A DNA stretch of 64,000 nt from Alphaproteobacteria bacterium (GTDB taxonomy: Bacteria > Pseudomonadota > Alphaproteobacteria > CAAHEQ01 > UBA3637). The translations under genes were made by a program, and so were the position numbers. Shown here in pieces: positions 1 through 12,219 of this stretch (the first letter of the stretch is position 1; each line of letters begins with the position of its first letter). The stretch covers positions 3,204 through 67,203 of the forward strand of contig JAZOOQ010000043.1 of assembly GCA_045655105.1 (NCBI GenBank), given 5' to 3'. Under the pieces are notes generated by a model. That model saw only the letters and a list, made by a program, of their open reading frames with translations. It was not told where the DNA came from and made no database searches.

Positions 1-1
1 T

Positions 2-163
2 GTTGATTATGACGAAAAACACAAAATATATATCGAAAATATCAAAAAACGTGATGATTATATAAAAAATCAGCGATCATTAGGTCAATCACCACAGTAT
101 ATTTCAAAACGGATTCAACAACTTTATCCAACATTACACCATTATGAAAAGATAAGAGAGTAG
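2..163 (+). CDS. 3' end of an upstream ORF (partial, unknown function)
   Basis: The frame is open from the window edge to TAG at 161-163 (...LYPTLHHYEKIRE*). The stop lies 1 nt before the ATG of the next gene, which suggests an operon. No motif recognised. Confidence 0.3.
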   Translation, partial: VDYDEKHKIYIENIKKRDDYIKNQRSLGQSPQYISKRIQQLYPTLHHYEKIRE

Positions 164-164
164 T

Positions 165-1241
165 ATGAAACAACTTATAAAACCAAAAGCATTACAAAAA
201 GGTGATACAATTGCGGTAGTTTCATTATCGTGGGGTGGCGCAGGTCAGTTTTTAGATTATTACCATTGTGCAAAAAAACAGTTTGAAACAGCATTTGATG
301 TTAAACTTATAGAAATGGCGCATACATTATCAGATCCACGAGTTTTATCTGAACACCCAGAATATAGACTTGATGATTTAATGCAAGCTTTTTTAGATCC
401 TAATGTTAAAGCAATTTTAACAACTATTGGAGGTGATGATACAATTCGGTTGTTATCTTTTATGACTGATGATCACTTTCAAGTTATTCAGTCACATCCT
501 AAAATTTTTATGGGAATGTCTGATACAACAGTCAATCATTTTATGTGTTATAAAGCAGGTATTTCCTCGTTTTATAGTCCTAGTTTGATGTTTGGGTATG
601 CTGAGTTTGGAGGGATTCCTGATTTTATTATTCAGAATACAAAAAAAACACTATTCTCGACACAAAATATTGGAAATTTACCGGAAAGTTCTCAATATAT
701 TATAGAGAGTTTTGATTGGGGCATGACAGATTTTTCTCCTCGTCAAAGAATGTTATCTCCTAAATGGAAATATATTCAAGGAACACATCCTGTTCAGGGA
801 AGATTATTGGGCGGTTGTATGGAAGTATTGAGTATGATGAATGGTAGTAATATTTGGCCTATTGGGTCTGATTGGGATAATGCAATTTTATTCTTGGAAA
901 CAAGTGAAGAAAGACAACCTCCTTCACAGTTAAAATACTTTTTAAGAAATTTAGGTTCACAAGGGATTTTAAATCGCATTAAGGGAATTTTATTTGCACG
1001 ACCCGGTGGTGAATTTTCGGAAAAAGAGGTTTTAGAACAAGAAAAATGGTTAAATCAATATTCTCAATTTGATGAAGTGCTTTTGCAAGTAGCTAAAGAA
1101 TATAATCGAATGGATTTATGTATAGTAACTCATATGGATTTCGGACATACGGTTCCCCAATTAATTTTGCCGATGGGAATGTTAACGAAAATAGACCCCA
1201 TTAGACAAAGGATTTCATTTTTAGAAAGAGCTGTTGAATAG
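165..1241 (+). CDS. S66-family serine peptidase (LD-carboxypeptidase / MccF-like)
   Basis: 358-aa ORF with S66 hallmarks in the expected order: nucleophile motif FMGMSDTT, acidic LFLETSEE, and C-terminal MDFGHT (the Ser-Glu-His pattern of LdcA/MccF). Its length is closer to MccF-type proteins than to ~300-aa LdcA. Confidence 0.8.
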   Translation: MKQLIKPKALQKGDTIAVVSLSWGGAGQFLDYYHCAKKQFETAFDVKLIEMAHTLSDPRVLSEHPEYRLDDLMQAFLDPNVKAILTTIGGDDTIRLLSFMTDDHFQVIQSHPKIFMGMSDTTVNHFMCYKAGISSFYSPSLMFGYAEFGGIPDFIIQNTKKTLFSTQNIGNLPESSQYIIESFDWGMTDFSPRQRMLSPKWKYIQGTHPVQGRLLGGCMEVLSMMNGSNIWPIGSDWDNAILFLETSEERQPPSQLKYFLRNLGSQGILNRIKGILFARPGGEFSEKEVLEQEKWLNQYSQFDEVLLQVAKEYNRMDLCIVTHMDFGHTVPQLILPMGMLTKIDPIRQRISFLERAVE

Positions 1242-1245
1242 TTGA

Positions 1246-2343
1246 TTATCTTTGTCGATAGAGAGGGTCTGTTTTATCTAACAACCGTTTCATAAACTCT
1301 TTTTTCTTAGAATAGAGAAAAGATTGAATTTTGCAATCTCCATAATTTTCATCCATTCTATTTAGTATTTCTAAACGCCTTTTATTTCTCATTAAAACAG
1401 ATAATGGGGTTTCTAATAATGATCCTAGATTAAACTCAGGCGCAAGTGGGGTATTGCATGCTCCAAACCCATAAGGAGACATTAAAAGATCTCCTGTTGG
1501 TGTTAACCCCATTACATTGCGAGATATTTGGCAAGGATTAATTTCACCTTCTTTGGGGTATAAATTCTTTAATGAACAAATCAAATTAATTTTTGGGTAC
1601 TTGTATTTTTCTTCTAAATTTTTTAAAAGATTTATGCCTGCTTTATATTCTGAAGCTGTTGGAATATTTGTTTGTATTTGATTTCGACCAACAAAAGGAA
1701 CGATGCGCATTAATAAATGATTTTGTATGCCTGCTTCGTGTAATGCAAAAAACATATCTCTCAGAAGCTTTGGATTTAAATTATCTTTTGTTAGAGTACA
1801 TTCTGTTTGAACAGAAACATTGTTTTTTATAAATTCTTGAGCAATTCTTAGATTATCTGTAACATAATTTTCGCTTCTGTATTCTAGTGCGCGTGTTTTA
1901 TATGGATTATCAAAAGCACAATTATATTGAGAAATATATTTAGAAACATAGGGTATATCGTCTATTTTTATTCCTTTAGATGTTGTAACAAGGCTTAAAT
2001 TATCACGGCCAAATTTTTGAGATGCAGCAACTAAAAATTGCAAATTTTCAGGATTCAATAAGGCATCTCCACCAGAAATTTGAAGTTCTAAATCCGGAAC
2101 ATCTAGTTGGGTTAATATTTTCATTTTATCAGAATAGGATAACTCCAAGCCCTTTTTTGCCAATTCATGAGATGCCTGGGTATACATATTTTGTTGATTT
2201 CTTTTAATAGATAATGTTTCTTTTAAAGCATTATATTGAATTTCTAACAGACCATTTTTTTCCGTTGGTTTAATTGAATCTACACAACAAATGGAACATG
2301 CATGTGGACAAAGATATGTTATATTGTAAATTATTCCAACCAT
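1246..2343 (-). CDS. Radical SAM enzyme with extra C-terminal cysteines (SPASM/twitch-like?)
   Basis: 365-aa ORF with an N-terminal CxxxCxxC (CPHACSIC) and SGGDALL (GGE-like SAM motif). Additional Cys residues near the C-terminus (NPCQ, GFGACN, YGDCK). AAAGGAGA RBS upstream of the ATG. Confidence 0.8.
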   Translation of the reverse strand: MVGIIYNITYLCPHACSICCVDSIKPTEKNGLLEIQYNALKETLSIKRNQQNMYTQASHELAKKGLELSYSDKMKILTQLDVPDLELQISGGDALLNPENLQFLVAASQKFGRDNLSLVTTSKGIKIDDIPYVSKYISQYNCAFDNPYKTRALEYRSENYVTDNLRIAQEFIKNNVSVQTECTLTKDNLNPKLLRDMFFALHEAGIQNHLLMRIVPFVGRNQIQTNIPTASEYKAGINLLKNLEEKYKYPKINLICSLKNLYPKEGEINPCQISRNVMGLTPTGDLLMSPYGFGACNTPLAPEFNLGSLLETPLSVLMRNKRRLEILNRMDENYGDCKIQSFLYSKKKEFMKRLLDKTDPLYRQR

Positions 2344-2364
2344 GAAGTATCTCCTTTGAATGGT

Positions 2365-2393
2365 ATTATATTGAATATTTTTTATTTTGTCAA
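2365..2393 (-). promoter_or_regulatory. Consensus sigma70-type promoter of the radical SAM gene
   Basis: On the minus strand: TTGACA (2393-2388), a 17-nt spacer, then TATAAT (2370-2365). The RBS and the ATG at 2343 follow. Confidence 0.55.
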
Positions 2394-2504
2394 TTTTTGA
2401 TTGTATAGAAACATTTATTTATATTTAACAAAATTTGTTGAAAAAAGTTTAAAGGAATCTTTTAAAACTCGCCAATATGAATAGCTAATAAAGTCTGTGT
2501 ATTA

Positions 2505-2690
2505 CCAGCCACCTATAGCGTTTAAAAAAAGCCGCCTTTGGGCGGTTTTTTTATTGGCTAGGTGAGGGGATTTGACCAACGGATGAGTTGGTTTGTTCAC
2601 GAAGCGTTAGCGAAGTAGAGGCCATAGGCGGTCCCGAGTTTGCGAGGGATAAATTGCCCTGCAATTTACAATCCAGCCACCCCAGCCACA
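2505..2690. repeat. GC-rich structured ~175-bp element, copy A (candidate sRNA gene or MITE-like insertion)
   Basis: Bounded by CCAGCCAC at 2505-2512 and at 2673-2680/2682-2689. Contains hairpin CCGCC-TTTG-GGCGG flanked by A7/T7 (2524-2552), TTATTGG, internal hairpins (CCAAC-GGATGA-GTTGG; TAAATTG-CCCTG-CAATTTA), then ACAATCCAGCCACCCCAGCCA. Collinear with copy B at 4535-4717. Visibly much more GC-rich than its surroundings. Confidence 0.6.
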
Positions 2691-2698
2691 TTTAATAA

Positions 2699-2722
2699 AG
2701 GACGAGAAATTGTCCTTTTTTC
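2699..2722 (+). terminator. Intrinsic terminator-like hairpin
   Basis: AGGAC-GAGAAATT-GTCCT followed by T6 on the plus strand, directly after element A. Confidence 0.45.
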
Positions 2723-3021
2723 TTTATAAATCAAGCATTTGAATTAGTTCGAAGATGAATATATTTTGATAGCTTGTTTTACAACATCTTCGAACTTGCT
2801 TCTATATTTTTCAATAACTTAGCAAATTTCAGCCTTTTTTGAGCAGAAAAATGAACCTCTGCGAATTTTTGCATAGGTTAAATAAAAAATATTTAATAAA
2901 AAATATTTATGCAATCTTTTTTACTGAGTAAGTATATATTGTATTCAATAATTCAAATCCAACTGCTTGATAACATTTATCTTCTGCTAAAATTAACATA
3001 AGCTTTACTTGTATAAAACAT

Positions 3022-3519
3022 TTACCTTAAATAACTAACAAAATCAGCTAAAGCAAGTTCATATTGTACATAAGATAGATCTGCGGCTTTAAATTTTTCT
3101 TTAAACCCTAACTGTGTATACACATGTTTTGCAATATTGTTTGCATTTGAGACATTAATCTGAATTATTTTATAACATTTATTATGAAATAACTCTTGAA
3201 TAAAAAGAGATAAAATCTTTTTTCCAAATCCTTTATTTTGAAAATCTTGTTCACAAATCTTAATACCAATTTCCACATAAAAGTCTTTTATTTTTTTATA
3301 ATGCATTTCTCCTACAGAAGCATTATCTATTTCAATTATAAAATGACATCTATCCTCTGTATCTTTTTGTAGAAGAGATATTACTTTTTCCGAAGTTGTA
3401 CCTAATCCGTTTGGAAAACCAGCATGCGCCATAACTTTTCCATCGTTCCACCAAGAAACCAATTGGGGAACATCCGTTATTTGCGCTTTTCTAATAACTA
3501 AATTTTGAAACCTTAACAT
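3022..3519 (-). CDS. GNAT-family N-acetyltransferase (AAC(6')/RimL-like subgroup)
   Basis: 165-aa ORF with N-terminal WWNDGKVMAHAGFP (typical of the Acetyltransf_8-like subgroup). The acetyl-CoA pocket motif QNKGFGKK matches the Q/RxxGxG/A pattern. Confidence 0.8.
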   Translation of the reverse strand: MLRFQNLVIRKAQITDVPQLVSWWNDGKVMAHAGFPNGLGTTSEKVISLLQKDTEDRCHFIIEIDNASVGEMHYKKIKDFYVEIGIKICEQDFQNKGFGKKILSLFIQELFHNKCYKIIQINVSNANNIAKHVYTQLGFKEKFKAADLSYVQYELALADFVSYLR

Positions 3520-3706
3520 TTTTAATACTGATTATAAATTACACTTATAAACATATACCACAAAATATATCTTAATGCAATAATAAACTCTATATTTGCG
3601 TACAGGCTTCTAAGGTTAGCTATAAATTGTAATATTTTATTGTAATTTTATTGACTTTCCTCCATAGATATTGGTAATATTCATGTAATCACTTACAGAT
3701 ATTGAA

Positions 3707-4318
3707 TTATTTTTTATTTGTTTTTAACCAAAATCGTAACTCTATGTTATTTTTATTAATGGGATGATAAGGATTGGATTTAAAAATATCACAGTCTTTT
3801 AAAGCTAAAGGTGTTTCAATTCTTCCGCCCCATTCGTTCATTCTTCCAATAATTGTCCGATAAGAGGCCTCATTTCTGGCATCACAAGTTACCAGAATTT
3901 CAGGCAGGCTCAGTTTCTCACGACAATAGTCCAAGGATAAATCCAAACCAATTTTTGCATAACCGTGCTTTCTGGCAGACGGTCGAATAACATACCCAAT
4001 ATGCCCCCCAAACTCGCTAAGGGCAGGTGTTAATCTGTGGCGAATACTAAAACGCCCCAGAATGTCTTTTGTATTTGTGTCCACAAGCCATAACGTGCTG
4101 TCTGGTACATGTCCTTCTTTTAAACCAATTCCGGCTTGGGCATCTAGTAGAGGCTTCACCTTATAGGAATAAAAATTTTCTTTCAATTGTTTTTTATCGA
4201 AAGAGGCATATTTTGTATATTGACCAAAAAACGGATCCTTAGCTTCCACCAATTCATCCACAAATCTTAAAAAAGATTCCTGGTATTCAAGAGTTGGATT
4301 TATCAATTCAAAAGACAT
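3707..4318 (-). CDS. GNAT-fold acetyltransferase (COG3981-like)
   Basis: 203-aa ORF. GGHIGYVIRPSARKHGYA and LVTCDARNEASYRTI match my memory of the COG3981 predicted acetyltransferase family pattern. Confidence 0.7.
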   Translation of the reverse strand: MSFELINPTLEYQESFLRFVDELVEAKDPFFGQYTKYASFDKKQLKENFYSYKVKPLLDAQAGIGLKEGHVPDSTLWLVDTNTKDILGRFSIRHRLTPALSEFGGHIGYVIRPSARKHGYAKIGLDLSLDYCREKLSLPEILVTCDARNEASYRTIIGRMNEWGGRIETPLALKDCDIFKSNPYHPINKNNIELRFWLKTNKK

Positions 4319-4534
4319 CTGTTATTCTCCTTTCATTTTAGTGGCTTCCGTTTCAAGCTAACATACAAAACCGAAAATTGCAATGCTAAATTTTAAATTT
4401 AGTTCCGGAAATTGATTTAATTTATGGCGTGTTTAAAACTATGATTTAATTACATTTGCTGTATTTTACTGAATGAGCGACTTAAAAAATACTCATTTAC
4501 CTATCCCAAGTAGTTTGTATATTGTACAGAAAGT

Positions 4535-4717
4535 CCAGCCAATAAAAATCCCCCGTTTATCGGGGGGGGTTATTGGTTTGGTATCTCGGGCGAGAACCAA
4601 TGTTCGGTGAACGAGGATTCATTTGTATCCGAGTGAGAGACGCCCTTGGGCGGTCGCAAGCATAAGCGCGCGATGAAATGTGCGAAGCCATTTCACAATC
4701 CATGGTAGCCCAGCCAA
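4535..4717. repeat. GC-rich structured ~175-bp element, copy B (paralog of 2505-2690)
   Basis: Bounded by CCAGCCAA at 4535-4542 and 4710-4717. Contains hairpin TCCCCCG-TTTAT-CGGGGGG (T5 follows on the minus strand), TTATTGG, long hairpin ATTGGTT...AACCAAT, hairpin GAAATG-TGCGAAGC-CATTTC, then ACAATCCATGGTAGCCCAGCCA. The module order matches copy A, with compensatory stem changes. Confidence 0.6.
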
Positions 4718-5090
4718 AACAGACAAGTCGCTAGAAATAGCTTCAATTCCGACATCAATTCATTTTGCGTTGCCGCTTGAATTCATTGTGTCTCATTGCT
4801 TCTGAGCATAAAAACAATTCGCTGGATTGTTTTTATTTGCGCAGTCTTTATTTTACAAGCACTTATACCGGTCCGTGTATAGTGTTTTTCAAAAAGCCTA
4901 TTTTTCAGCCCTACACGGACTTTAAGCTCAAAAAATCCTTTGTTTTCAATACTTCTATCTTGGAATCTCAATTTTTTATCCCAGAGATATCATGGGGTAA
5001 TCAGAGTTGATTTTAATGTGAAATACTTATTGTATTCTGATAAAATATAAGATAGTATCTCTTTGTTTAGAATATATTAAAGGAAGCAAA

Positions 5091-5717
5091 ATGAATTATC
5101 CTTTATCTAAGAAAAGTGATTTATGCGAGATTTGTCCTTTTAAAGAGGCTTTTTTTGTTCCTTGTTGGCATGTGGGTGAAGAAGCTGAAGTGCTTTTTGT
5201 TGGAAAGACGGCGCGGGCCTCAGAAAATAAATCAACAAAATATTGGAAAAACAGGGCTTCAGAGTTATTTTTAAACAGTTCTTGGCCCTATTGGCGATAT
5301 ACAAAAGAAATCGCAACATATATTTATGGAGATAATGCTTGGAATAAAATAGCTATGACGAATTTGATTAAATGTAATCTGGGGTCAACAAAAGATATGA
5401 CTTCTGATTCTGTGAAAGATTTTTGCATTGTTAAGCAACAATTTATTGCAACAGAAATTAATCAAATTAACCCTAAAAAAATTATTTTTTACACGCATCC
5501 TCATTACGATAGATATCTAAAAAAAATTTTTCAAATTGAGCAAGAAAAACACTTAATGGTTATATTGGGTAAAAAAAAGGTTGATTTTTGGTTTTTTAAT
5601 ATAACCCTAAATGGGAAAAAGATTTCGTGTTTACGAACAGGGCACCCAGAAAGAAAAAAGAAAATAGATTTTGTGCAAGAAACGATTCAATTTTTAACAA
5701 AAAGGGAAGAAATATAA
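5091..5717 (+). CDS. Divergent uracil-DNA glycosylase superfamily (family 4-like fold) protein
   Basis: 208-aa ORF with an AAGGAAG RBS. The layout resembles family 4 UDGs: VLFVGKTA in place of the GE(A/G)PG motif, TNLIKCN...DFC, and C-terminal GHPERKK (HPS/HPA-like motif B). Confidence 0.5.
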   Translation: MNYPLSKKSDLCEICPFKEAFFVPCWHVGEEAEVLFVGKTARASENKSTKYWKNRASELFLNSSWPYWRYTKEIATYIYGDNAWNKIAMTNLIKCNLGSTKDMTSDSVKDFCIVKQQFIATEINQINPKKIIFYTHPHYDRYLKKIFQIEQEKHLMVILGKKKVDFWFFNITLNGKKISCLRTGHPERKKKIDFVQETIQFLTKREEI

Positions 5718-5718
5718 A

Positions 5719-7470
5719 ATGTATGATATTTTGCAAAACATTAACAAACCTGCAGATTTAAAAGCTTTAAATAATGAACAATTAATTGCGTTGGCCAGCG
5801 AAATGCGCGAAGCTATCTTAAACCGCAACAGCACGATAGGTGGGCATGTTGGCCCAAATTTAGGCATTGTTGAAACGGCAATTGCATTGCATTATGTGTT
5901 TAATTCGCCAACAGATAAAATTATATGGGATGTTTCGCACCAATGCTATCCGCATAAACTTTTAACGGGTCGAAAAGAAGGTTTTATAACTGATGACGGC
6001 ATGAAAAAGATTTCTGGTTACACAAACCAAGATGAAAGTGAACATGACTTTTTTAAGATCGGTCATACCTCAACTTCGATTAGTTTGGCTTGTGGATTAG
6101 CCAAAGCGCGTGATTTAAAAAATGAAAAGCATAATGTGATTGCTGTGATTGGTGATGGGTCACTTTCTGGGGGTGAAGCATTAGAAGGGTTTAATAATGC
6201 TTCGGTTTTGAATTCAAATATTATCATTATTATAAACGATAATGAAATGTCAATTGCCGAAAACCAAGGTGGCTTATATGAAAACTTGCGGTTGCTTCGA
6301 AAAACCAATGGGTTAGCTGAGCTTAATTTATTTAAAGCATTGGGTTTTGAGTATCATTATGTTGCTGATGGCAATTCTGTTCAAGATATGATCGAGGCCG
6401 TATCATCTTTAAAAGATACAAATAAACCAACTGTTTTGCATATTCATACAGTTAAAGGAAAAGGATATAAATTTGCCGAAGAAGATAAAGAAACATGGCA
6501 TTGGAACGGGCCTTTTCATATTGAAGATGGCAGATCAAAATGGAATATGTCTGGTGAAAACATTAATGATTTAACTTATAACTATCTTTTAGAAAAAATT
6601 AAAACAGATGACTCAATTGTTGCTGTTAATGCAGGAACGCCTGGTGTTTTTGGATTAAATGCTGAAAGACGCGAGGCCTTAGGCAAGCATTTTGTTGATG
6701 TTGGTATTGCTGAAGAACATGCTGTTGCTTTTTCTTCTGGCTTAGCAAAAGGCGGAGCAAAGCCAATTTATTTGGTGATGAGCTCATTTATTCAACGCAC
6801 ATATGACCAACTTTCTCAAGATTTGGCATTGAATAATAATTCAGCTGTTATTTTGGTTGCTTGGGGTGGAATATCTGGATCTGATATGACTCACTTATGT
6901 TCTTTTGATATTTCTATGATTAGTAATATTCCAAATTTGGTATATCTTGCGCCAACAACAGTTGAAGAATATCTGTCCATGCTTGATTGGGCTGTTGAGC
7001 AAAATGAACATCCAGTGATTATTCGTCAGCCAAAAGAAATGATTCATTCTTCTTTGCCTGTTGAGGCTGATTATGGTAAATTAAACACTTATAAAATTGA
7101 AGAAAAAGGTAGCCAAGTTGCCATTATTGCTGAAGGAAGCTTTTTTAAGCTTGGCAAGATGGTTGCTAAAGAACTTGGTAAACATCATATTAAACCAACT
7201 TTGGTTAATCCACGTTATTTAACTGGAATTGATAAAGAATGCCTGAAAAATTTAAAAGATGAGCATCAGTTGGTTATCACTTTAGAAGATGGCGAGCTTG
7301 ATGGTGGTTTTGGCGAAAAGATAACCCGTTTTTATGGGGTAAGCGATATGAAAGTATTAAATTATGGGTCATTTAAGGAATTTACAGATAGAGTGAGTTT
7401 GGATGAGCTTTACACACGTTATCGCTTAAAGCCAGAACTGATCGTTCAAGATATATTGGATATATTATAA
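5719..7470 (+). CDS. dxs: 1-deoxy-D-xylulose-5-phosphate synthase family (TPP-dependent) enzyme
   Basis: 583-aa ORF. The N-terminus is collinear with DXS: GGHVGPNLGIVETAIALHYVF, IIWDVSHQCYPHKLLTGR (canonical DVGHQAYPHKILTGR), and TPP motif VIGDGSLSGGEALEGFNNA...NDN. Transketolase-like middle (VGIAEEHAV) and C-terminal domains. It is shorter than, and slightly divergent from, typical proteobacterial DXS. Its start is 1 nt after the preceding stop. Confidence 0.75.
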   Translation: MYDILQNINKPADLKALNNEQLIALASEMREAILNRNSTIGGHVGPNLGIVETAIALHYVFNSPTDKIIWDVSHQCYPHKLLTGRKEGFITDDGMKKISGYTNQDESEHDFFKIGHTSTSISLACGLAKARDLKNEKHNVIAVIGDGSLSGGEALEGFNNASVLNSNIIIIINDNEMSIAENQGGLYENLRLLRKTNGLAELNLFKALGFEYHYVADGNSVQDMIEAVSSLKDTNKPTVLHIHTVKGKGYKFAEEDKETWHWNGPFHIEDGRSKWNMSGENINDLTYNYLLEKIKTDDSIVAVNAGTPGVFGLNAERREALGKHFVDVGIAEEHAVAFSSGLAKGGAKPIYLVMSSFIQRTYDQLSQDLALNNNSAVILVAWGGISGSDMTHLCSFDISMISNIPNLVYLAPTTVEEYLSMLDWAVEQNEHPVIIRQPKEMIHSSLPVEADYGKLNTYKIEEKGSQVAIIAEGSFFKLGKMVAKELGKHHIKPTLVNPRYLTGIDKECLKNLKDEHQLVITLEDGELDGGFGEKITRFYGVSDMKVLNYGSFKEFTDRVSLDELYTRYRLKPELIVQDILDIL

Positions 7471-7595
7471 AGTTGGCTTTAAATTAACAAAAGTTTGTAT
7501 TTATATTTAACAAAAAAATGATTGCATAAATGAATATAGAGTGATAAAACTTTAGTTGAGTTTAAAATGGCTTTATATGAAAGGATATTCTATCA

Positions 7596-8003
7596 ATGAA
7601 AAAATATTTATCAATTGCTATTGCAGCGTTGTTTTTATCAGGATGTGCCTCCATTGTGAGAGATGGTTATCAATCTGTTCCTGTTCAAGCAAATGTTGAT
7701 AATGTTGATATTGAAATCACAAATTCTCAAGGTGCATTGGTTTATAAAGGTCAAGCTCCAACAACTGTTATGTTGAAAACATCAAAATCAGGTTATTTTA
7801 GCCCTGAAAAATATACTTTGAAAGCTTCAAAACCAGGATATGCAACACGCTATGGAACAATTGATTGGCATGTCAGCAATTGGTATATTTTGGGTAACTT
7901 AGTGTTTGGTGGTATTTTTGGATGGTTTATTGTTGATCCATTAACAGGGCATATGTATTATTTAGATGAAGTTGCTTCTGTTCAATTGCCAACAGAACAA
8001 TAA
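7596..8003 (+). CDS. Small lipoprotein, unknown function
   Basis: 135-aa ORF with a signal peptide and lipobox (ALFLSGCAS) and a hydrophobic C-terminal segment. An intrinsic terminator follows. Confidence 0.6.
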   Translation: MKKYLSIAIAALFLSGCASIVRDGYQSVPVQANVDNVDIEITNSQGALVYKGQAPTTVMLKTSKSGYFSPEKYTLKASKPGYATRYGTIDWHVSNWYILGNLVFGGIFGWFIVDPLTGHMYYLDEVASVQLPTEQ

Positions 8004-8028
8004 GTTGTTCATTTAATAAATAAAAAAA

Positions 8029-8055
8029 ACTCTCAATATATTGGGAGTTTTTTGT
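8029..8055 (+). terminator. Intrinsic terminator
   Basis: ACTCTCAA-TATA-TTGGGAGT followed by T6. The stem sequence is nearly identical to the terminator at 9801-9831. Confidence 0.7.
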
Positions 8056-8080
8056 TTTATGCGTTGTCATATAGTTACTA

Positions 8081-8104
8081 TGGGGTGGCTGGATTCGAAC
8101 TAAT
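8081..8104 (-). other. tRNA 3'-end-like fragment (T-loop plus acceptor; Gln-like), not a complete tRNA
   Basis: The minus strand reads ATTAGTTCGAATCCAGCCACCCCA, which is a GTTCGAATCC T-loop motif plus an acceptor-like strand. No matching 5' half or anticodon arm is present nearby. AATCCAGCCACCCCA recurs at 2670-2684 (+) and ATTAGTTCGAA at 2743-2753 (+). Confidence 0.45.
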
Positions 8105-8382
8105 GTAAGAATGAGTTGTTTTATCCATAGCAAACTTAAATAATTTAAGGGTTGTTGGGCATTGTTTTTTACTTAAAGAGGGAGAGTTGATTGTTTGAAT
8201 AAAAGGATTGGGATAGCCTTTTTGTTAATATTTGATAATTTTTTTTCTCTAGGTTATTGAAATTTTTATTTATTTTCTTATTTTTTTTATGAAAAACTTA
8301 TTGACGTTTAAAATATTTTTTGATACTTTGAAAAAGTTAGGGGTATGTTCCCGTTCTTTGTAGGTAACAAAAGAGAATTTCG

Positions 8383-9312
8383 ATGCTGAAAAAGAAAAAC
8401 GAAATGGAAAAGGGGAGATCAGTTGCAGATACTTTGGGTGGTGGTGCACTGATTGGTGTTTTATCATTAGGTGGTGTGTATGGATATAACCATGCGATGT
8501 GTTTGTATCGTGAAGCTGAAACATTGGATCAGTTGAGCGTTCTTGTTGCGGGCAGTCGTTCGTTTGATATTCCGCTTCATTTCGGTGAATTGACCGTTCT
8601 TGAAGATGGAAAATATGCACCTTATATTGTTCCAATTAGAGAGGTTGTTTCAAAAGTTAATTATCGTTCAAGTCAAACGGCATATGACGCTGGTTTGGTT
8701 GATGATGATGGTGAGGTCGGCGGTGTGACGCTTCATGATGTGCGTGAATATGAATCGTTTGACACAGCTTTGAACACGCCGGTTTGGGTTCGGGCGGAAG
8801 ATGAAAAGAATTGGTCAGTTCGAATAACTGGTCTTTCTTACTCTGTGTGTGAAAAATTGTTACAAAAACACGATTTAGGTTTTGATTATGCTTATGTCGC
8901 ACATCGAAACGATTCTGATAATTCACCAATAGATCCTGAATATGGTGATTTTTCAATGGTTGATAGCTCAAATAAATATGCTAACCCTCAAAAAAAATTA
9001 ACGGGAGGTGTTTCAACAGAAAAACAAATTGAAAAGGTTTGTTCTATGATTGATTCGGCAAAAGGAAAAACCTCTTTAGCTCAAACATATATTAGTAATG
9101 TTAATAATGTTAAAGTAGCTGGCATTGCTTTTGGCTCTGATGAAGGTCCTTGTTATGATAAAAAAAGCTTGGCTTGTATGGCTTATGGGGCTAGATTATA
9201 TAACCCAGAAACAGAAAAAAAAGACATACCACTTCAAACACTGGTGCTTCATTTTGGATCTGGTGGTTTAGATTCAAGTGTCTCATCCATTTCTCCAGCT
9301 GCAATGGATTAA
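8383..9312 (+). CDS. Hypothetical membrane-anchored or secreted protein (orphan)
   Basis: 309-aa ORF with one N-terminal hydrophobic segment (GGGALIGVLSLGGVYGY) and no motif recognised. The first half looks more GC-rich than neighbouring genes. Possible promoter TTGACG-17 nt-TACTTT upstream. The antisense ORFs here are weaker. Confidence 0.5.
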   Translation: MLKKKNEMEKGRSVADTLGGGALIGVLSLGGVYGYNHAMCLYREAETLDQLSVLVAGSRSFDIPLHFGELTVLEDGKYAPYIVPIREVVSKVNYRSSQTAYDAGLVDDDGEVGGVTLHDVREYESFDTALNTPVWVRAEDEKNWSVRITGLSYSVCEKLLQKHDLGFDYAYVAHRNDSDNSPIDPEYGDFSMVDSSNKYANPQKKLTGGVSTEKQIEKVCSMIDSAKGKTSLAQTYISNVNNVKVAGIAFGSDEGPCYDKKSLACMAYGARLYNPETEKKDIPLQTLVLHFGSGGLDSSVSSISPAAMD

Positions 9313-9368
9313 CAATATATCTGAAAAAAATTTTAAAGCCGATGAATAATTAACGAAATGGATTTATA

Positions 9369-9776
9369 ATGAAGAGATATTTTAATTTGATATTATTTGC
9401 ATTGATGTTTGTTCCTGCTATTGGTTTTGCGGCAAGTTCAGAACTGTTGATTCAAACAGATCGTCATTGGAATCAACAACCAATTAACCCACTTCATATT
9501 AATCAACCACAAGTAACAGTTTTAAGAATCAAAATCGCTGTTGGCGAAAAATTAGAAATGCACAAGCACCCAGTTTTAAATATTGGATATTTAACAAAAG
9601 GAGAATTATCGGTTTATTCTGATAAAGGAGATGTTTTAGTGCTGAAGGCTGGTGATCCTATTGTTGAATTGGTTGATACTTGGCACTATGGCGTTAATAC
9701 AGGGGATCAAGAAGCTGAAATTGTTGTCACCTATGTGGGCGAAAAAGAGGATAGTTTAACCATCTATAATAAATAG
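9369..9776 (+). CDS. Secreted cupin-domain protein
   Basis: 135-aa ORF with a signal peptide (LILFALMFVPAIGFAASS). Cupin motif 1-like MHKHPVLNIGYLTKGEL and motif 2-like GDPIVELVDTWHYGVN. Confidence 0.7.
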   Translation: MKRYFNLILFALMFVPAIGFAASSELLIQTDRHWNQQPINPLHINQPQVTVLRIKIAVGEKLEMHKHPVLNIGYLTKGELSVYSDKGDVLVLKAGDPIVELVDTWHYGVNTGDQEAEIVVTYVGEKEDSLTIYNK

Positions 9777-9800
9777 CTTAAGTAAAGAAACATTAAATCA

Positions 9801-9831
9801 AAAGCTCTCGATATATTGGGAGCTTTTTTTT
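9801..9831 (+). terminator. Intrinsic terminator
   Basis: AAAGCTCTCGA-TATA-TTGGGAGCTTT followed by a T run. Confidence 0.7.
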
Positions 9832-9918
9832 AGAGTAGATTCAAGGTTATGGTTAATTTATTATTGTATTTTCATTTTTCTAAAGATATACTAAGAAAAA
9901 TTTGAAGAAAAGGAGCTA

Positions 9919-10740
9919 ATGATGCAAAAAAAGATTATTGTGGCGATTTGTTGTTTTTTAAGTGGTTATTTGTTCACTTTAGGATATATAAATAAAGAAG
10001 CATTACTAGAATATGGTTCAAATTTTTCTTCCAAGATTTTTAAATCTGAAGAACCTTTAAAAAAGAATCGATTTCTTTTAATGATCAGCAGTTGGAAAAG
10101 ACCGATGCTGTTATCTGGTCAAATATTAAGATTTATGAACCAAACCTATGATAATTATAAAATCAGCGTTTCAATTAAAGGAACACCGGAAGATTGGATT
10201 AGATCAACTTTTATGAAAGAGTGGCAACCCTTTATTGATAAAGGGAGTTTGCTTGTTCGATTTGATGAAAACAAAGAACAGTTAAGCAATTTATTAGATA
10301 CAATCAGAAATATTCCATTAGATGAATATGATTACTTTTGCAAAATTGATGATGATGATTGGTATGCTCCTAATTATTTAGAAGAAGTTAACAGATATTT
10401 AAATAAAGAAAAAGATATTGATATTTCTTCAACACTGAATATGGTAATTTTAGATAACGGGGACGATCAAGTAAAAATGTATTATAGTCCATTGGATTGG
10501 TCTGGGCAAACGATTTGCATTTCAAGACCAATGGCAAAAGCACTGCTTGAAATTGAAGAAAATCCAGCAGCATATGAGCCACTTTATCCTGCTTCAGAAG
10601 TTTTGCGTTTAAGATCAAACAAAGAAGATGCTTTAATTCATCACTTTATTCGCGCAATTGGTGGCAAGCCTCAAGAACGAGATACCCCGAAAACAGATAT
10701 AATTTATGGGCGACAATATCCTTCAATTACAAGATATTAA
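9919..10740 (+). CDS. Membrane-anchored GT-A-like glycosyltransferase (tentative)
   Basis: 273-aa ORF with AGGAG RBS; the second ATG at 9922 has better spacing. N-terminal TM segment, and a KIDDDDWYAPNYL DXD-like motif in a GT2-like context (FLLMISSWKRPMLL...QTY). Confidence 0.45.
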   Translation: MMQKKIIVAICCFLSGYLFTLGYINKEALLEYGSNFSSKIFKSEEPLKKNRFLLMISSWKRPMLLSGQILRFMNQTYDNYKISVSIKGTPEDWIRSTFMKEWQPFIDKGSLLVRFDENKEQLSNLLDTIRNIPLDEYDYFCKIDDDDWYAPNYLEEVNRYLNKEKDIDISSTLNMVILDNGDDQVKMYYSPLDWSGQTICISRPMAKALLEIEENPAAYEPLYPASEVLRLRSNKEDALIHHFIRAIGGKPQERDTPKTDIIYGRQYPSITRY

Positions 10741-10750
10741 TTCTGATCAT

Positions 10751-10784
10751 AAAAAAAGAGCCACTCTTAACGAGTGGCTTTTTT
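10751..10784. terminator. Bidirectional intrinsic terminator between convergent genes
   Basis: A7-GAGCCACTC-TTAAC-GAGTGGCT-T6. Confidence 0.7.
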
Positions 10785-10797
10785 AATAGGGTTAAAT

Positions 10798-12219
10798 TTA
10801 AAGTTTAATTAACTCAATTTCTTTATTTGGTAAATCTTTTACACCAACACCAAGAGCAGCCAGTTTATCTCTGATTTCATCAGATTTTGCCCAATTTTTT
10901 GTAGCTCTGGCTTCTTTGCGTTGTTCTAAAAGATCGGCGATTTCTGGAGTGACTTCAACAGAAGGTGTTTGTTTGGCTTCAATATTTTTTAATTCCAAAT
11001 TAAACACGCTGTCTACATGCAACAAATAGGCAAGGCGAACAGCTTCGCTTTTTTTGTTATCTTTTAAAACACCCCACATATGAGAAATAGCAAGCGGTGT
11101 TTTAATATCATCAAATAAATAATTGTTGAATTCTGATTTTAAGTTTTCAACTTCTTTGTTTTCATCTTCAGTTAATGAAGTATTATTCACTTTAGCTTTT
11201 AAAGAGGCGATGGCATCACATAAGTTTTCATAAGCTTTTTTAGCGCCATCTAAAGCTTCATCTGAAAAAACGGCAGAACTACGATAATGAGAAGTCAATG
11301 TGAAATATTTATAATGCATTGGCAAATAGCCCATTTCTTTTAAGGTATCAATGGTTGTTTTGCCTCCCGTTGATTTACTCATTTTACCAGATTTTGTGTT
11401 CAAAAATTCCATATGTAACCAATAGTTGACCCATTCGTGACCTAAATGAGCTTCACTTTGGGCAATTTCATTTTCGTGGTGCACAGGAATATGATCAATG
11501 CCACCACAGTGGATATCAATACGTTCACCCAAATATTTTGTTGACATAGCAGAGCATTCAATATGCCAGCCAGGGTAACCACGACCCCATGGGCTATCCC
11601 ATTGTAAAATTTGATTTTCAAATTTAGAAGAGGTAAACCATAAAACGAAATCAGAGTCATTTCGTTTATTTAAATCTTGCTCTGTTCGAGCGCCATGTTT
11701 TAAATCTTCGCGATTTTGCCCAGAAAGAGCGCCATATTTTTCAAATTTAGCCGTATCAAAATAAACATTGCCATTTGAAAAATAAGCAAAACCTTTGTCT
11801 TCTAAAGATTTGACGAATTTAATCATATCTTCAATATGTTCAGTGGCGCGGCAAACAATGGTTGGGCGTTTTAAGCCAAGTTCTTGTGTGTGTCTGAAAA
11901 AAGTATCTTCATAATGTCTGGCAATTTCCATAACGCTTTTTTTCTCGCGTTCAGCAGCGATCAGCATTTTATCTTCGCCTTCATCATTATCATTTGTTAA
12001 ATGCCCAACATCTGTTACATTCATAACGTGTTTCACTTTATAACCAGCCAAACGTAAAGTATTGGCAATCAAGTCTTCAAAGATATATGTGCGAAGATTG
12101 CCGATATGTGCATAAGAATAGACTGTTGGCCCACAGCAATACATTGTGACCATTTTTTCATTTATTGGTTTAAATTCTTCTTTGTTTCTTGTCTTTGTGT
12201 TATATAAATAAACAGTCAT
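10798..12219 (-). CDS. cysS: Cysteine--tRNA ligase
   Basis: 473-aa ORF with class I motifs HIGNLRTY (HIGH) and KMSKS, and a CGPTVY start region typical of CysRS. Confidence 0.95.
   Translation of the reverse strand: MTVYLYNTKTRNKEEFKPINEKMVTMYCCGPTVYSYAHIGNLRTYIFEDLIANTLRLAGYKVKHVMNVTDVGHLTNDNDEGEDKMLIAAEREKKSVMEIARHYEDTFFRHTQELGLKRPTIVCRATEHIEDMIKFVKSLEDKGFAYFSNGNVYFDTAKFEKYGALSGQNREDLKHGARTEQDLNKRNDSDFVLWFTSSKFENQILQWDSPWGRGYPGWHIECSAMSTKYLGERIDIHCGGIDHIPVHHENEIAQSEAHLGHEWVNYWLHMEFLNTKSGKMSKSTGGKTTIDTLKEMGYLPMHYKYFTLTSHYRSSAVFSDEALDGAKKAYENLCDAIASLKAKVNNTSLTEDENKEVENLKSEFNNYLFDDIKTPLAISHMWGVLKDNKKSEAVRLAYLLHVDSVFNLELKNIEAKQTPSVEVTPEIADLLEQRKEARATKNWAKSDEIRDKLAALGVGVKDLPNKEIELIKL

What the first reader, a model, noticed from the sequence alone, without database searches (positions are those of the whole stretch)
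2505..4717. Two paralogous GC-rich ~175-bp structured elements bounded by element-specific CCAGCCA(C/A) direct repeats, bracketing the two GNAT genes
Seen in sequence: copy A (2505-2690) and copy B (4535-4717) share the same module order.
1. An 8-bp box: CCAGCCAC in A, CCAGCCAA in B.
2. A strong GC hairpin. In A it is CCGCC/GGCGG with A7/T7 flanks. In B it is TCCCCCG/CGGGGGG with T5 on the minus strand.
3. TTATTGG.
4. About 120 nt of GC-rich sequence with several local hairpins.
5. A hairpin whose stem differs but stays complementary: TAAATTG/CAATTTA in A and GAAATG/CATTTC in B.
6. ACAATCCA...CCCAGCCA, which ends in the same 8-bp box that starts the element. In A the box is tandem, at 2673-2680 and 2682-2689.

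Further observations:
- The TTGG(C/T)T(A/T)GG near the left end can pair with the CC(C)AGCCAA at the right end in both copies, giving a closing stem.
- The box variant is matched within each copy but differs between copies.
- Both copies stand out as roughly half G+C by eye in a ~30% GC background.
- No protein-coding frame is evident in either copy.

Inference, with alternatives:
- A pair of ~190-nt sRNA genes read on the minus strand. Both GC hairpins would then act as 3' intrinsic terminators.
- Non-autonomous mobile (MITE-like) or integrative-element relics with 8-bp target duplications at a preferred CCAGCCA target that resembles a tRNA discriminator plus CCA end.

I cannot assign these elements to any RNA family I know.
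Basis: seen in the sequence. Interest (0 to 1): 0.7.

Follow-up and report, generated by a model that had tools for sequence, protein, structure and literature searches.

The report
tRNA-Gln-end junction modules of island array
The two GC-rich elements are copies of a clade-specific, strongly folded repeat built from the 3' end of the tRNA-Gln gene. It marks the junctions between swappable gene units stacked next to that tRNA in gut Alphaproteobacteria, so the layout is a familiar kind of island array but the folded module is not a described family.

Summary
Window 2505-2692 (A) and 4535-4719 (B) are paralogous modules of about 185 bp and about 50% G+C in a 25-30% background. They match no Rfam family, tRNA or tmRNA.

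They belong to a family of at least 27 distinct copies, found only in ruminant-gut Alphaproteobacteria MAGs. Read on the window minus strand, a module has these parts:
- A 5' arm identical to the reverse complement of the last 19 nt of tRNA-Gln.
- Five hairpins with strong compensatory changes.
- A 3' arm that is a decayed copy of the tRNA-Gln T-arm, acceptor strand and CCA.
- An intrinsic terminator.
- The 8-nt core TTGGCTGG.

In relatives, modules stand singly or in tandem against the 3' end of tRNA-Gln. They also recur between variable cargo, including the same GNAT genes.

Every cargo unit ends with a terminator plus the core, which would rebuild the tRNA end after integration. Large serine recombinase genes lie 0.7-2 kb from such junctions in four clades. 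The CCAGCCA boxes are therefore att-core copies of the tRNA end, not target-site duplications.

Best reading: these are junction modules of a tandem integrative-island array. The folded core is probably transcribed, but its role is unknown and transcription was not tested. This is a new variant of a known kind.

The parts
2493..2504 (+). GTCTGTGTATTA, the end of a P'-type arm. On the minus strand it reads TAATACACAGAC. This arm starts many cargo units in relatives; here it leads into the 365-aa gene block.
   Evidence: The same arm follows the core in L003, L007, L054, L010, L002 and L013. Coordinates.
2505..2513 (+). Left box of A, CCAGCCACC. It is the stump of the 5' arm (Y) of a neighbouring module that has been deleted.
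   Evidence: In tandem copies the same linker and arm continue into a full module...TTTTTTTAAACGCTATAGGTGGCTGGATTG... in L008.
2514..2523 (+). Inter-module linker TATAGCGTTT (AAACGCTATA on the minus strand).
   Evidence: The linker recurs between tandem modules in L008, L026 and L004.
2524..2552 (.). Bidirectional intrinsic terminator of A: A7, GCCGCC, TTTG, GGCGG, T7.
   Evidence: Terminator scan. The stem sequence varies between copies with compensating changes (CCGCC/GGCGG, CCACC/GGTGG, CGCCCC/GGAGCG, CCCCCG/CGGGGG).
2553..2585 (-). 3' arm of A, a decayed copy of the last 33 nt of tRNA-Gln (variable loop, T-arm, acceptor 3' strand, G, CCA). It is the 3' strand of the closing stem.
   Evidence: Local alignment to tRNA-Gln scores 28, against a shuffle maximum of 20.
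2576..2668 (-). Folded core of A: hairpins H5 (2576-2591), H4 (2592-2614), H3 (2620-2631), H2 (2632-2649) and H1 (2650-2668).
   Evidence: Fold. Covariation: 84.8% of cells paired against 28-40% with slid partners, and 29 pairs with changes on both sides against 6-10. Coordinates.
2670..2688 (-). 5' arm of A, TGGCTGGGGTGGCTGGATT. It is the exact reverse complement of the last 19 nt of tRNA-Gln. It contains both right-hand boxes and looks like an attB site (X|Y).
   Evidence: 19 of 19 identity to tRNA-Gln of relatives.
2697..2718 (.). Bidirectional terminator of the 165-aa GNAT unit, followed by ATTAAATG and the core. This is the right end of that cargo unit.
   Evidence: Terminator scan. The same flank ends in TGGCTGG followed by AGAAGTCTGGTAATACAC in L003, where no module is present.
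3022..3519 (-). 165-aa GNAT acetyltransferase, mobile cargo.
   Evidence: Pfam. The identical protein occurs on 23 contigs read, in many different neighbourhoods.
3707..4318 (-). 203-aa GNAT acetyltransferase, cargo that always lies about 200 nt downstream of a B-type module.
   Evidence: Pfam. Contexts.
4535..4542 (+). Core X of B, CCAGCCAA (TTGGCTGG on the minus strand), next to the start of the 203-aa GNAT unit.
   Evidence: The same junction TTGGCTGG|ACTTTCTGTACAAT occurs in L031 and L032.
4544..4569 (-). Intrinsic terminator of B (CCCCCG, ATAAA, CGGGGG, then ATTTTT). It has no A-run upstream, so it works in one direction only, on the minus strand.
   Evidence: Terminator scan; sequence.
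4572..4696 (-). 3' arm (ACCAAACCAAT) and folded core of B: H5 4578-4600, H4 4602-4630, H3 4641-4652, H2 4655-4672 and H1 4673-4696.
   Evidence: Fold, covariance-model hit, coordinates.
4697..4717 (-). 5' arm of B, TTGGCTGGGCTACCATGGATT. The core X is intact and the Y part has diverged.
   Evidence: Alignment to the tRNA-Gln reverse complement.
4718..5017 (-). A repeat of about 300 bp that precedes modules in relatives. It holds an inverted repeat (GTCCGTGTAGGG...TATACACGGAC at 4871-4920), an internal bidirectional terminator (4810-4834) and a short palindromic hairpin (4730-4741) just before the core. In related copies the equivalent hairpin is a stronger stem followed, on the tRNA strand, by a T-run.
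   Evidence: blastn finds up to 3 copies per locus at 83-95% identity. Alignment with a compensating terminator stem. Coordinates.

Best explanation
A and B are two copies (one typical, one divergent) of a clade-specific module derived from the end of tRNA-Gln. The module sits at the junctions of a tandem array of integrative gene units.

The array is built at the 3' end of the tRNA-Gln gene. Recombination joins partners between ...AATCCAGCCACC and CCAGCCA-3'. Each incoming unit carries the last 8 nt of the tRNA (the CCAGCCAA core) and a terminator at one end. The tRNA gene is therefore rebuilt, and the previous end is pushed outward. This leaves a trail of cores all on one strand.

The most likely enzyme is a large serine recombinase of about 530 aa, encoded on some units in relatives. 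It is absent from this window, so the window's units would be recombinase-less relics that can only be moved in cis.

The module begins with an exact 19-nt copy of the tRNA end, which is an attB look-alike. It ends with a terminator plus the core. It can therefore be stacked in tandem and can serve as a further landing site, which would explain why modules and cargo are interleaved and mosaic.

Between its arms the module keeps five GC-rich hairpins closed by a stem made of the two inverted tRNA-end copies. An intrinsic terminator follows on the window minus strand. I infer that it is transcribed as an RNA of about 165 nt, convergent with tRNA-Gln, with an unknown role.

What is shown: the anatomy, the tRNA homology, the covariation, the array architecture, the presence/absence polymorphism, and the proximity of the recombinase to junctions. 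What is inferred: the recombinase assignment, the exact crossover point, and transcription.
For: Family and distribution
- The covariance model finds 51 matches, 27 of them distinct. All lie in Alphaproteobacteria MAG loci, and none lies in the 9 chance pattern hits from other phyla.

Link to tRNA-Gln
- Wherever a tRNA-Gln gene is in view in a locus that holds modules, the array abuts its 3' end in convergent orientation. This holds in L002-L005, L008, L015, L016, L022, L026, L027, L030, L032 and L033.
- The 5' arm matches the tRNA end at 19 of 19 positions. The 3' arm matches the tRNA 3' part at about 27 of 33 positions, with a score of 28-29 against a shuffle maximum of 20-21.

Structure
- 84.8% of cells are paired, against 28-40% in slid controls. 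29 pairs have changes on both sides, against 6-10 in slid controls. None of 500 shuffles reaches the observed covariation score.

Junctions
- TGGCTGG occurs 4-9 times per array locus on one strand, and 0-1 times on the other. It is always preceded by a hairpin and followed by a module arm, the tRNA, or a cargo arm.
- Those hairpins read as terminators on the tRNA strand.

Occupied and empty sites
- L003 reads AAATG TGGCTGG AGAAGTCTGG TAATACAC. The window has module A between TGGCTGG and ...CTGG TAATACAC.
- L013 has the 365-aa flank joined to CCAGACTTCTCCAGCCAA and different cargo.

Mobile cargo
- The identical 165-aa GNAT protein occurs in many neighbourhoods.

Recombinase
- L007 carries a serine recombinase gene with a TAG stop. 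Intact homologs at 75-96% identity are P0001, P0002, P0005 and P0006.
- Each of these has a core|arm junction 0.7-2 kb away, and the arms are homologous.

Transcription direction
- Terminators score on the minus strand, and B's terminator works in one direction only.
Against: - The window holds neither a tRNA-Gln gene nor a recombinase. The model therefore rests on relatives.
- No recombinase gene lies inside any of the arrays next to tRNA-Gln that were inspected.
- The recombinase link is by proximity only. One homolog clade at 56% identity has no such junctions.
- In L055 a module lies about 6 kb from a tRNA-Tyr gene with no tRNA-Gln in view, so targeting is not strictly tRNA-Gln.
- No convincing sigma-70 promoter precedes the modules, and tandem copies have no room for one (reading).
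- The internal hairpins contain almost no G-U pairs: 2 against 617 Watson-Crick pairs. This is unusual for an RNA and would also fit a structure that matters at the DNA level.
- The excess of G-U pairs in the closing stem is what neutral transitions in a C-rich arm would give, so it does not fix the strand.
Confidence: 0.6

Rival explanations
1. The elements are first of all free-standing genes for a trans-acting small RNA, a conserved neighbour convergent with tRNA-Gln. The array features are secondary. Islands happen to integrate between the sRNA gene and the tRNA, and they duplicate the sRNA gene as part of a long att repeat.
For: - At least one module abuts tRNA-Gln in every species seen, including divergent L030.
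- Covariation is strong.
- Every copy keeps a terminator whose stem covaries.
- The fold z-scores are -3.7 and -2.8.
Against: - No promoter was identified, and tandem copies are separated only by the previous terminator.
- There are almost no G-U pairs in the hairpins.
- Copies are mosaic, with whole hairpins swapped.
- Both ends of the RNA are copies of the tRNA end, which coincide exactly with the recombination junctions.
- Expression was not tested.
Confidence: 0.3
2. The elements are non-autonomous MITE-like transposable elements. They have terminal inverted repeats and make 8-bp target-site duplications at a preferred CCAGCCA target.
For: - The two arms are inverted repeats of about 19 bp.
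- Boxes flank each copy.
- There is a presence/absence polymorphism.
Against: - The same core ends cargo units that contain no element, and it ends the tRNA gene itself.
- The left box of A belongs to a truncated neighbouring module.
- Modules sit only at core-marked junctions inside variable, cargo-carrying arrays, and only two hits occur in this 64-kb window.
- No transposase was found.
- All copies share one orientation.
Confidence: 0.05
3. The elements are integron-like recombination sites (attC analogues) that fold as single-stranded DNA. A tyrosine recombinase would use them to insert cassettes at a fixed site, the tRNA-Gln end.
For: - Structure is conserved while sequence is replaced.
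- G-U pairs are nearly absent.
- CCTAGCCAAT, the terminator and ATTGGCTGG form an imperfect palindrome of about 48 nt with one unpaired base (reading).
- The cassette arrays contain integron-typical cargo such as GNAT, toxin and defence genes.
Against: - No IntI or other tyrosine recombinase lies near any array.
- There is no GTTRRRY core.
- Cargo units hold several genes in both orientations, with their own terminators.
- Many unit ends have the core without the folded module.
- Serine recombinases, not tyrosine ones, lie next to the junctions.
Confidence: 0.07
4. The elements are cis-regulatory leaders (riboswitch or attenuator) of the downstream genes, the 203-aa GNAT for B and the 365-aa gene for A.
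For: - B always lies about 200 nt upstream of the 203-aa GNAT gene, on the same strand, with a terminator in between. The promoter scan found no promoter between them.
Against: - The 365-aa gene has its own perfect TTGACA-17-TATAAT promoter downstream of A's terminator.
- Most copies face the tRNA gene or another module, with no gene downstream.
- No riboswitch or T-box family matches.
Confidence: 0.05
5. The elements are functionless debris: decaying pseudo-tRNA fragments and old att scars with no constraint.
For: - The arms are tRNA fragments, and the 3' arm is decayed.
- Truncated copies exist (L010, L002, L004:2006).
Against: - Hairpins H1-H3 keep pairing through complete stem replacement. 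Paired cells are 93-96% in these helices, and many changes are on both sides.
- The terminator stems also covary.
- G+C is held about 20 points above the background.
Confidence: 0.08

Closest known systems
[quoted passage not shown]
   Same: - Several islands lie in tandem downstream of a tRNA-like gene.
- Each is bounded by a direct repeat of about 20 bp of the gene's 3' end.
- The integrase is a large serine recombinase encoded next to one junction.
- Some units lack the integrase and are thought to be moved in cis.
   Different: - The target here is tRNA-Gln rather than tmRNA.
- Units are much smaller (0.2-3 kb).
- The junctions carry a folded, covarying module of about 150 nt with an inverted second copy of the tRNA end. 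Nothing like this is described for ssrA-GIs.
- The recombinase link here is by proximity only.
Staphylococcal cassette chromosome elements (SCCmec and pseudo-SCC composite islands; CcrAB serine recombinases). This comparison rests on my own knowledge.
   Same: - Cassettes are stacked at the 3' end of one conserved gene.
- A short repeated integration-site sequence marks each boundary.
- Many cassettes have no recombinase.
   Different: - The target here is an RNA gene end, not rlmH.
- The folded GC-rich module has no counterpart.
- The taxon and the scale are different.
Tycheposons and other islands integrated at tRNA genes (bioRxiv 10.1101/2020.12.28.424599)
   Same: - Integration is at tRNA genes.
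- Partial tRNA copies flank the elements.
- Later arrivals push earlier ones into the island.
- Degenerate remnants are scattered through the island.
   Different: - The elements found in that study's screen each carry an integrase and are larger.
- No structured junction module is described there.
Integron attC sites and cassette arrays
   Same: - There are arrays of small cargo units.
- Junction elements keep their structure rather than their sequence.
- One short core recurs at every boundary.
   Different: - There is no IntI, no GTTRRRY core and no single long hairpin.
- Gene orientations are mixed and genes have their own terminators.
- The array is anchored on a tRNA gene.
Structured bacterial small RNAs of similar size (6S RNA, the tRNA-like YrlA, tmRNA pieces)
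   Same: - The length is about 165-190 nt.
- A long closing stem surrounds an internal multi-helix region.
- tRNA-derived sequence sits at the ends, followed by an intrinsic terminator.
   Different: - No Rfam model matches, even at an E-value of 10.
- ARAGORN finds nothing.
- The T-arm of the tRNA-like part is not kept as a T-arm. Its 5' strand pairs with a new partner to form H5.
- Expression is unknown.

Membership tests
Tandem integrative islands at the 3' end of a tRNA or tmRNA gene (accretion arrays; ssrA-GI or SCC-like) | The array abuts the 3' end of the target gene. | tested here: met
   tRNA-Gln lies directly after the last module in 13 related loci. This is not visible in the window itself, which has only tRNA-Leu at 25182-25270.
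Tandem integrative islands at the 3' end of a tRNA or tmRNA gene (accretion arrays; ssrA-GI or SCC-like) | Direct repeats of the target's 3' end mark every unit boundary, all in one orientation. | tested here: met
   TGGCTGG cores occur on one strand only, at all unit boundaries. There is 19 of 19 identity to the tRNA end at module 5' arms.
Tandem integrative islands at the 3' end of a tRNA or tmRNA gene (accretion arrays; ssrA-GI or SCC-like) | A site-specific recombinase is encoded in at least some units, next to a junction. | tested here: inconclusive
   Large serine recombinase genes lie 0.7-2 kb from core|arm junctions in four clades. None is in the window, and none is in the arrays next to tRNA-Gln that were inspected.
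Tandem integrative islands at the 3' end of a tRNA or tmRNA gene (accretion arrays; ssrA-GI or SCC-like) | Occupied and empty sites exist in the population. | tested here: met
   L003 and L013 lack module A at junctions that are otherwise homologous. The identical GNAT cargo occurs in many contexts.
Tandem integrative islands at the 3' end of a tRNA or tmRNA gene (accretion arrays; ssrA-GI or SCC-like) | Excision to a circle, and integration catalysed by the recombinase. | not testable with these tools
   This needs PCR or long reads across circular junctions, or an in vitro recombination assay.
Small RNA gene | A conserved secondary structure supported by covariation. | tested here: met
   See: 84.8% of cells paired, 29 pairs with changes on both sides, and the controls far lower.
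Small RNA gene | An own promoter and terminator. | tested here: inconclusive
   The terminator is present in all full copies. No convincing promoter was found (reading).
Small RNA gene | A discrete transcript. | not testable with these tools
   No expression data are at hand.
Known Rfam families (6S, T-box, tmRNA, tRNA, riboswitches and others) | A match to the family's covariance model. | tested here: not met
   No hit at gathering scores. At E-values up to 10 the only hits within the two elements fall on their terminator ends, and all score far below the gathering scores. ARAGORN finds nothing there.
MITE | Target-site duplications created at each insertion, and copies dispersed over the genome. 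| tested here: not met
   The boxes are shared with the tRNA gene and with cargo ends that lack an element. Copies occur only in the arrays, with two in the 64-kb window.
Integron attC | An IntI integrase, and R''/R' cores (RYYYAAC/GTTRRRY) bounding a single imperfect hairpin. | tested here: not met
   No tyrosine recombinase lies near any array. The core is TTGGCTGG, and the fold is a five-hairpin junction.

The most novel reading that the evidence does not exclude
The module is a portable landing pad made of an attB copy plus a functional RNA. It would let serine-recombinase islands build integron-like arrays of very small gene cassettes at tRNA-Gln. It would do so in Alphaproteobacteria, a class that, to my recollection (not checked here), is reported to lack integrons. 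The folded RNA would take part in the system, for example by controlling recombination or read-through, or by acting on tRNA-Gln, whose last 19 nt its 5' end complements perfectly.
Probability: 0.15. Interest if true: 0.8.

Novelty: new variant of a known kind. Interest (0 to 1): 0.55.

Why it matters
The finding explains a hypervariable gene hotspot between cysS and tRNA-Gln in an uncultured, low-GC group of ruminant-gut Alphaproteobacteria. It shows how identical small cargo genes (GNAT acetyltransferases, ankyrin-repeat proteins, peptidases, defence-type genes) come to sit in many different neighbourhoods.

It also yields a candidate structured RNA motif of about 150 nt that is well supported by covariation and is absent from Rfam. 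Its ends are made from a tRNA gene's 3' end.

If the module is an active part of the recombination system, it would be a compact, natural landing-pad design for serine recombinases. If it is an sRNA, it is a new family whose 5' end is perfectly complementary to a tRNA.

Tried and rejected
- **Rfam.** Scans at gathering scores and at E-values up to 10 found only matches to the terminator part. 6S RNA, T-box, riboswitch and tmRNA readings were dropped. ARAGORN found nothing.
- **Phages and plasmids.** blastn of module A against both collections found nothing. A megablast of window 1-12000 against plasmids also found nothing. A viral-contig pattern scan gave 0 hits.
- **Metagenome scans.** The first pattern (3' half) gave 0 hits. 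The second gave 13 hits, all chance, with no covariance-model match.
- **Genome scan.** The 9 hits outside the Alphaproteobacteria MAGs were chance.
- **Strand from G-U versus A-C counts.** The closing stem has 76 G-U against 36 A-C, but the A-C cells come from non-homologous 5' ends. The G-U excess is what transitions in a C-rich arm would give. The A-C cells in the internal hairpins are alignment artefacts. I judged this test not decisive.
- **Fold energies.** They do not separate the two strands.
- **Promoter search.** The candidate CTTGTA-N17-CTATTT lies in a hairpin that is better explained as a terminator on the tRNA strand. I dropped it.
- **An ORF in the 300-bp repeat.** An 80-aa ORF is called there in some loci. 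It spans unrelated pieces and is not conserved.
- **Neighbouring proteins.** The 171-aa protein next to the repeat and the 208-aa protein in the window are unrelated to each other. Neither has an informative family match.
- **Recombinase in the window.** None was found.
- **RNAalifold on a plain MAFFT alignment.** It gave a poor consensus because whole hairpins are swapped between copies. I replaced it with a hand-set structure and a covariance-model alignment.


Full report
**1. The observation**

Window 2505-2692 (A) and 4535-4719 (B) are real, related, non-coding and GC-rich.
- The two copies align at 74% mean column identity. Each hits a profile built from the pair at E about 1e-51.
- A two-block pattern taken from them occurs exactly twice in the window and never in 100 shuffles.
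- G+C reaches 0.43-0.52, against 0.19-0.35 in the flanking non-coding sequence; the second GNAT gene itself reaches 0.46.
- No ORF of 50 aa or more lies in either copy.
- The GC hairpins score as intrinsic terminators on the minus strand. B's hairpin lacks an upstream A-run, so it works in that direction only.
- Either strand folds better than shuffles, with z between -2.8 and -3.7. Energies do not choose a strand.
- Rfam gives nothing at gathering scores. At E-values up to 10 the only hits within the two elements fall on their terminator ends, far below gathering scores. ARAGORN finds only an unrelated tRNA-Leu at 25182-25270.

**2. The elements are members of a family**

The 165-aa GNAT protein between the two copies exists, residue for residue, on at least 23 contigs with quite different neighbours. 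Those loci are full of further copies of the element, all on the same strand as the GNAT gene. Some stand in tandem with no gene between them.

A genome-collection scan with an end-to-end pattern returned 16 stretches.
- The 7 from "Alphaproteobacteria bacterium" MAGs of sheep, yak, roe deer and rumen (one further MAG record gives no host) are true members.
- The 9 from other phyla are chance matches.

Viral contigs, phage and plasmid collections, and JGI metagenome contigs hold none.

A covariance model finds 51 matches, 27 of them distinct. In the window it finds exactly A (127 bits) and B (45 bits).

**3. Anatomy and the link to tRNA-Gln**

Wherever a tRNA-Gln gene is in view in a locus that holds modules, the array ends directly at its 3' end in convergent orientation. 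This holds in 13 loci from several species. Read on the element's strand (window minus), a module has these parts.
1. A 5' arm, TGGCTGGGGTGGCTGGATT. It is identical at 19 of 19 positions to the reverse complement of the last 19 nt of tRNA-Gln...AATCCAGCCACCCCAGCCA.
2. Five short hairpins, H1 to H5.
3. A 3' arm that is a decayed direct copy of the tRNA's last 33 nt. About 27 of 33 positions match, with a score of 28-29 against a shuffle maximum of 20-21.
4. An intrinsic terminator.
5. The 8-nt core TTGGCTGG.

The two arms are inverted copies of the same tRNA end, so they pair to close the fold.

**4. The structure is under constraint**

I aligned the 27 distinct copies to a hand-set structure through the covariance model.

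| Measure | Observed | Partners slid by 1-3 columns |
|---|---|---|
| Cells forming standard pairs | 84.8% | 28-40% |
| Pairs with changes on both sides | 29 | 6-10 |

The covariation score is 0.19, against 0.02-0.06 with slid partners. None of 500 shuffles reaches it.

- H1, H2 and H3 keep 93-96% pairing through complete replacement of their stems. For H1, examples are TAAATTGC/GCAATTTA, TAAATCGC/GCGATTTA, a GGGAT/ATCCC-based stem, and GAAATG/CATTTC in B.
- The terminator stems also differ between copies while staying complementary.
- Copies are mosaics in which whole hairpins are exchanged.

Two cautions apply.
- The hairpins contain almost no G-U pairs, 2 against 617 Watson-Crick pairs. This is unusual for an RNA.
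- The G-U pairs in the closing stem all come from C-to-T changes in the C-rich 3' arm. Neutral transitions would give these anyway.

The folded strand is therefore inferred mainly from the terminators.

**5. The array is built from units that rebuild the tRNA end**

In the array loci TGGCTGG occurs 4-9 times on one strand, and 0-1 times on the other.

Each occurrence is preceded by a hairpin. In most cases the hairpin reads as an intrinsic terminator on the tRNA strand. Examples:
- CCAGCCAAATCGTGCAAGCGTCCAGAAATGGACGTTTTTTC in L055.
- CCAGCCACAGAATACAAACCGTCAGAAATGACGGTTTTTTC in L061.
- The terminator of the 165-aa GNAT gene in the window.

Each occurrence is followed by one of these:
- the tRNA gene;
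- a module's 5' arm;
- a cargo arm such as AGARGTCTGGTAATACACGGACTT.

Every unit thus carries, at one end, the last 8 nt of tRNA-Gln plus a terminator. This is what an element needs if it integrates between ...CCAGCCACC and CCAGCCA-3' and must leave a working tRNA gene. Stacking such units gives the observed trail of cores.

Presence/absence supports this.
- L003 reads AAATG-TGGCTGG-AGAAGTCTGG-TAATACAC after the 165-aa GNAT gene.
- The window has module A inserted between TGGCTGG and ...CTGG-TAATACAC.
- L013 has the window's 365-aa flank joined to CCAGACTTCTCCAGCCAA and then to different cargo.

A's left box (2505-2513) with the linker TATAGCGTTT is the stump of a second module that has been deleted. 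The same linker leads into a full module in L008. The match of box variants within each copy is therefore coincidental, and the boxes are not target-site duplications.

**6. A candidate enzyme**

No recombinase lies in the window. None lies in the arrays next to tRNA-Gln that were inspected. Their cargo includes GNATs, ankyrin-repeat proteins, an S41 peptidase, a trypsin-like protein with DUF4357, a NADAR protein, PIN-domain proteins and proteins with no family match.

In L007, however, the 165-aa GNAT unit is followed by TTGGCTGG|AGAGGTCTGGTAATACACGGAC, then one gene, then a large serine recombinase gene of about 530 aa interrupted by a TAG stop.

Intact homologs are abundant in the same kind of MAGs. 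In four clades at 75-96% identity, a core|arm junction lies 0.7-2 kb from the gene.

| Locus | Features near the recombinase gene |
|---|---|
| L054 | core\|arm junction |
| L061 | core\|arm junction |
| L055 | core\|arm junctions and a 120-bit module |
| L062/L063 | three module-like copies with a variant core TTGGTTGG |

The arms after the core are homologous to each other. They loosely resemble the tRNA's own sequence at that position. A clade at 56% identity has no such junctions.

This is evidence by proximity, not proof. The pattern matches the Dehalococcoides ssrA islands. There a CcrB-like serine recombinase sits next to one junction of tandem islands that are bounded by 20-bp repeats of the tmRNA gene's end. 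Units without the recombinase are thought to be moved in cis (PMC3146451). Tycheposons show the same stacking at tRNA genes.

**7. What the window shows in this light**

CysS, the conserved left anchor of the hotspot in relatives, is at 10798-12219(-). The tRNA-Gln anchor is not in the window. By synteny with L003 and L011 it probably lies beyond position 1.

Read on the minus strand, the finding region contains, in order:
1. the 300-bp repeat (5017-4718) ending in the core;
2. module B;
3. the 203-aa GNAT unit;
4. the 165-aa GNAT unit, ending in its terminator plus the core;
5. module A;
6. the stump of another module;
7. a cargo arm leading into the 365-aa gene, which has its own perfect promoter at 2393..2365.

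A and B do bracket the two GNAT genes, but as junction modules of a larger array.

**8. Mechanism, with what is shown and what is inferred**

Shown:
- the tRNA-derived arms;
- the covarying fold;
- terminators on all full-length copies compared;
- cores on one strand at all unit boundaries;
- arrays anchored on tRNA-Gln;
- mobile cargo;
- occupied and empty sites;
- serine recombinase genes near junctions.

Inferred:
- Units integrate by site-specific recombination at ACC|CCAG.
- The serine recombinase is the enzyme.
- The module's 5' arm, identical to the tRNA end over 19-20 nt, acts as a second attB. This would allow tandem modules and interleaving with cargo.
- The module is transcribed on the minus strand.

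The role of the folded core is open. It could be an sRNA, a DNA-level accessory structure, or both.

**9. Novelty and score**

Island stacking at a tRNA-like gene's 3' end with repeats of that end is well known. The folded, covarying junction module made from inverted copies of the tRNA end is not described in Rfam or in the papers read.

I rate it a new variant of a known kind, with interest 0.55. The more novel reading is a portable landing pad with a working RNA that gives integron-like arrays in a class that, to my recollection (not checked here), is reported to lack integrons. It is not excluded, and I give it about 0.15.

Noticed in passing
window 4718-5017: A repeat of about 300 bp lies between module B and the 208-aa gene. 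It recurs up to three times per locus in relatives at 83-95% identity. It contains a long inverted repeat (GTCCGTGTAGGG...TATACACGGAC) and an internal bidirectional terminator whose stem is replaced with compensating changes in other copies.
   Followed up: partly
window 2693-3021 (inverted repeat at about 2748-2795): The downstream flank of the 165-aa GNAT gene is itself a repeat, with three partial copies in L001. It has an inverted repeat, GTTCGAAGATG...CATCTTCGAAC. In architecture this matches the inverted repeat of the 300-bp repeat, but with different arm sequences. It may be a second family of structured modules.
   Followed up: partly
window 2365-2393 (minus strand): A perfect sigma-70 consensus promoter, TTGACA-17-TATAAT, precedes the 365-aa gene (1246-2343). 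That protein has only weak similarity to radical SAM, SPASM and viperin-like proteins.
   Followed up: no
L007 2544-4136; L054, L055, L061, L062: A family of large serine recombinases of about 530 aa is abundant in these gut Alphaproteobacteria (714 proteins at E of 1e-20 or better). The L007 copy carries an in-frame TAG stop. Its neighbours include DpnII-type restriction-modification genes, DUF6119, NYN-domain and AAA_15 genes.
   Followed up: partly
L062 2741-2864, 4151-4281, 4789-4912; L055 8345-8492: There are variant modules whose core is TTGGTTGG instead of TTGGCTGG. One module lies in a recombinase island about 6 kb from a tRNA-Tyr gene, with an rpoC and sigma-factor gene pair further upstream, and with no tRNA-Gln in view. 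The system may use more than one target.
   Followed up: partly
window 15501-17907 and 24221-24862: Three ankyrin-repeat proteins are encoded within 10 kb, and ankyrin-repeat genes are also cargo in the arrays of relatives.
   Followed up: no
window 5719-7470: A DXP-synthase-like transketolase (583 aa) and a weakly UDG-like 208-aa protein lie inside the variable interval between cysS and the array. In L002 only a 145-aa fragment of the transketolase remains.
   Followed up: no
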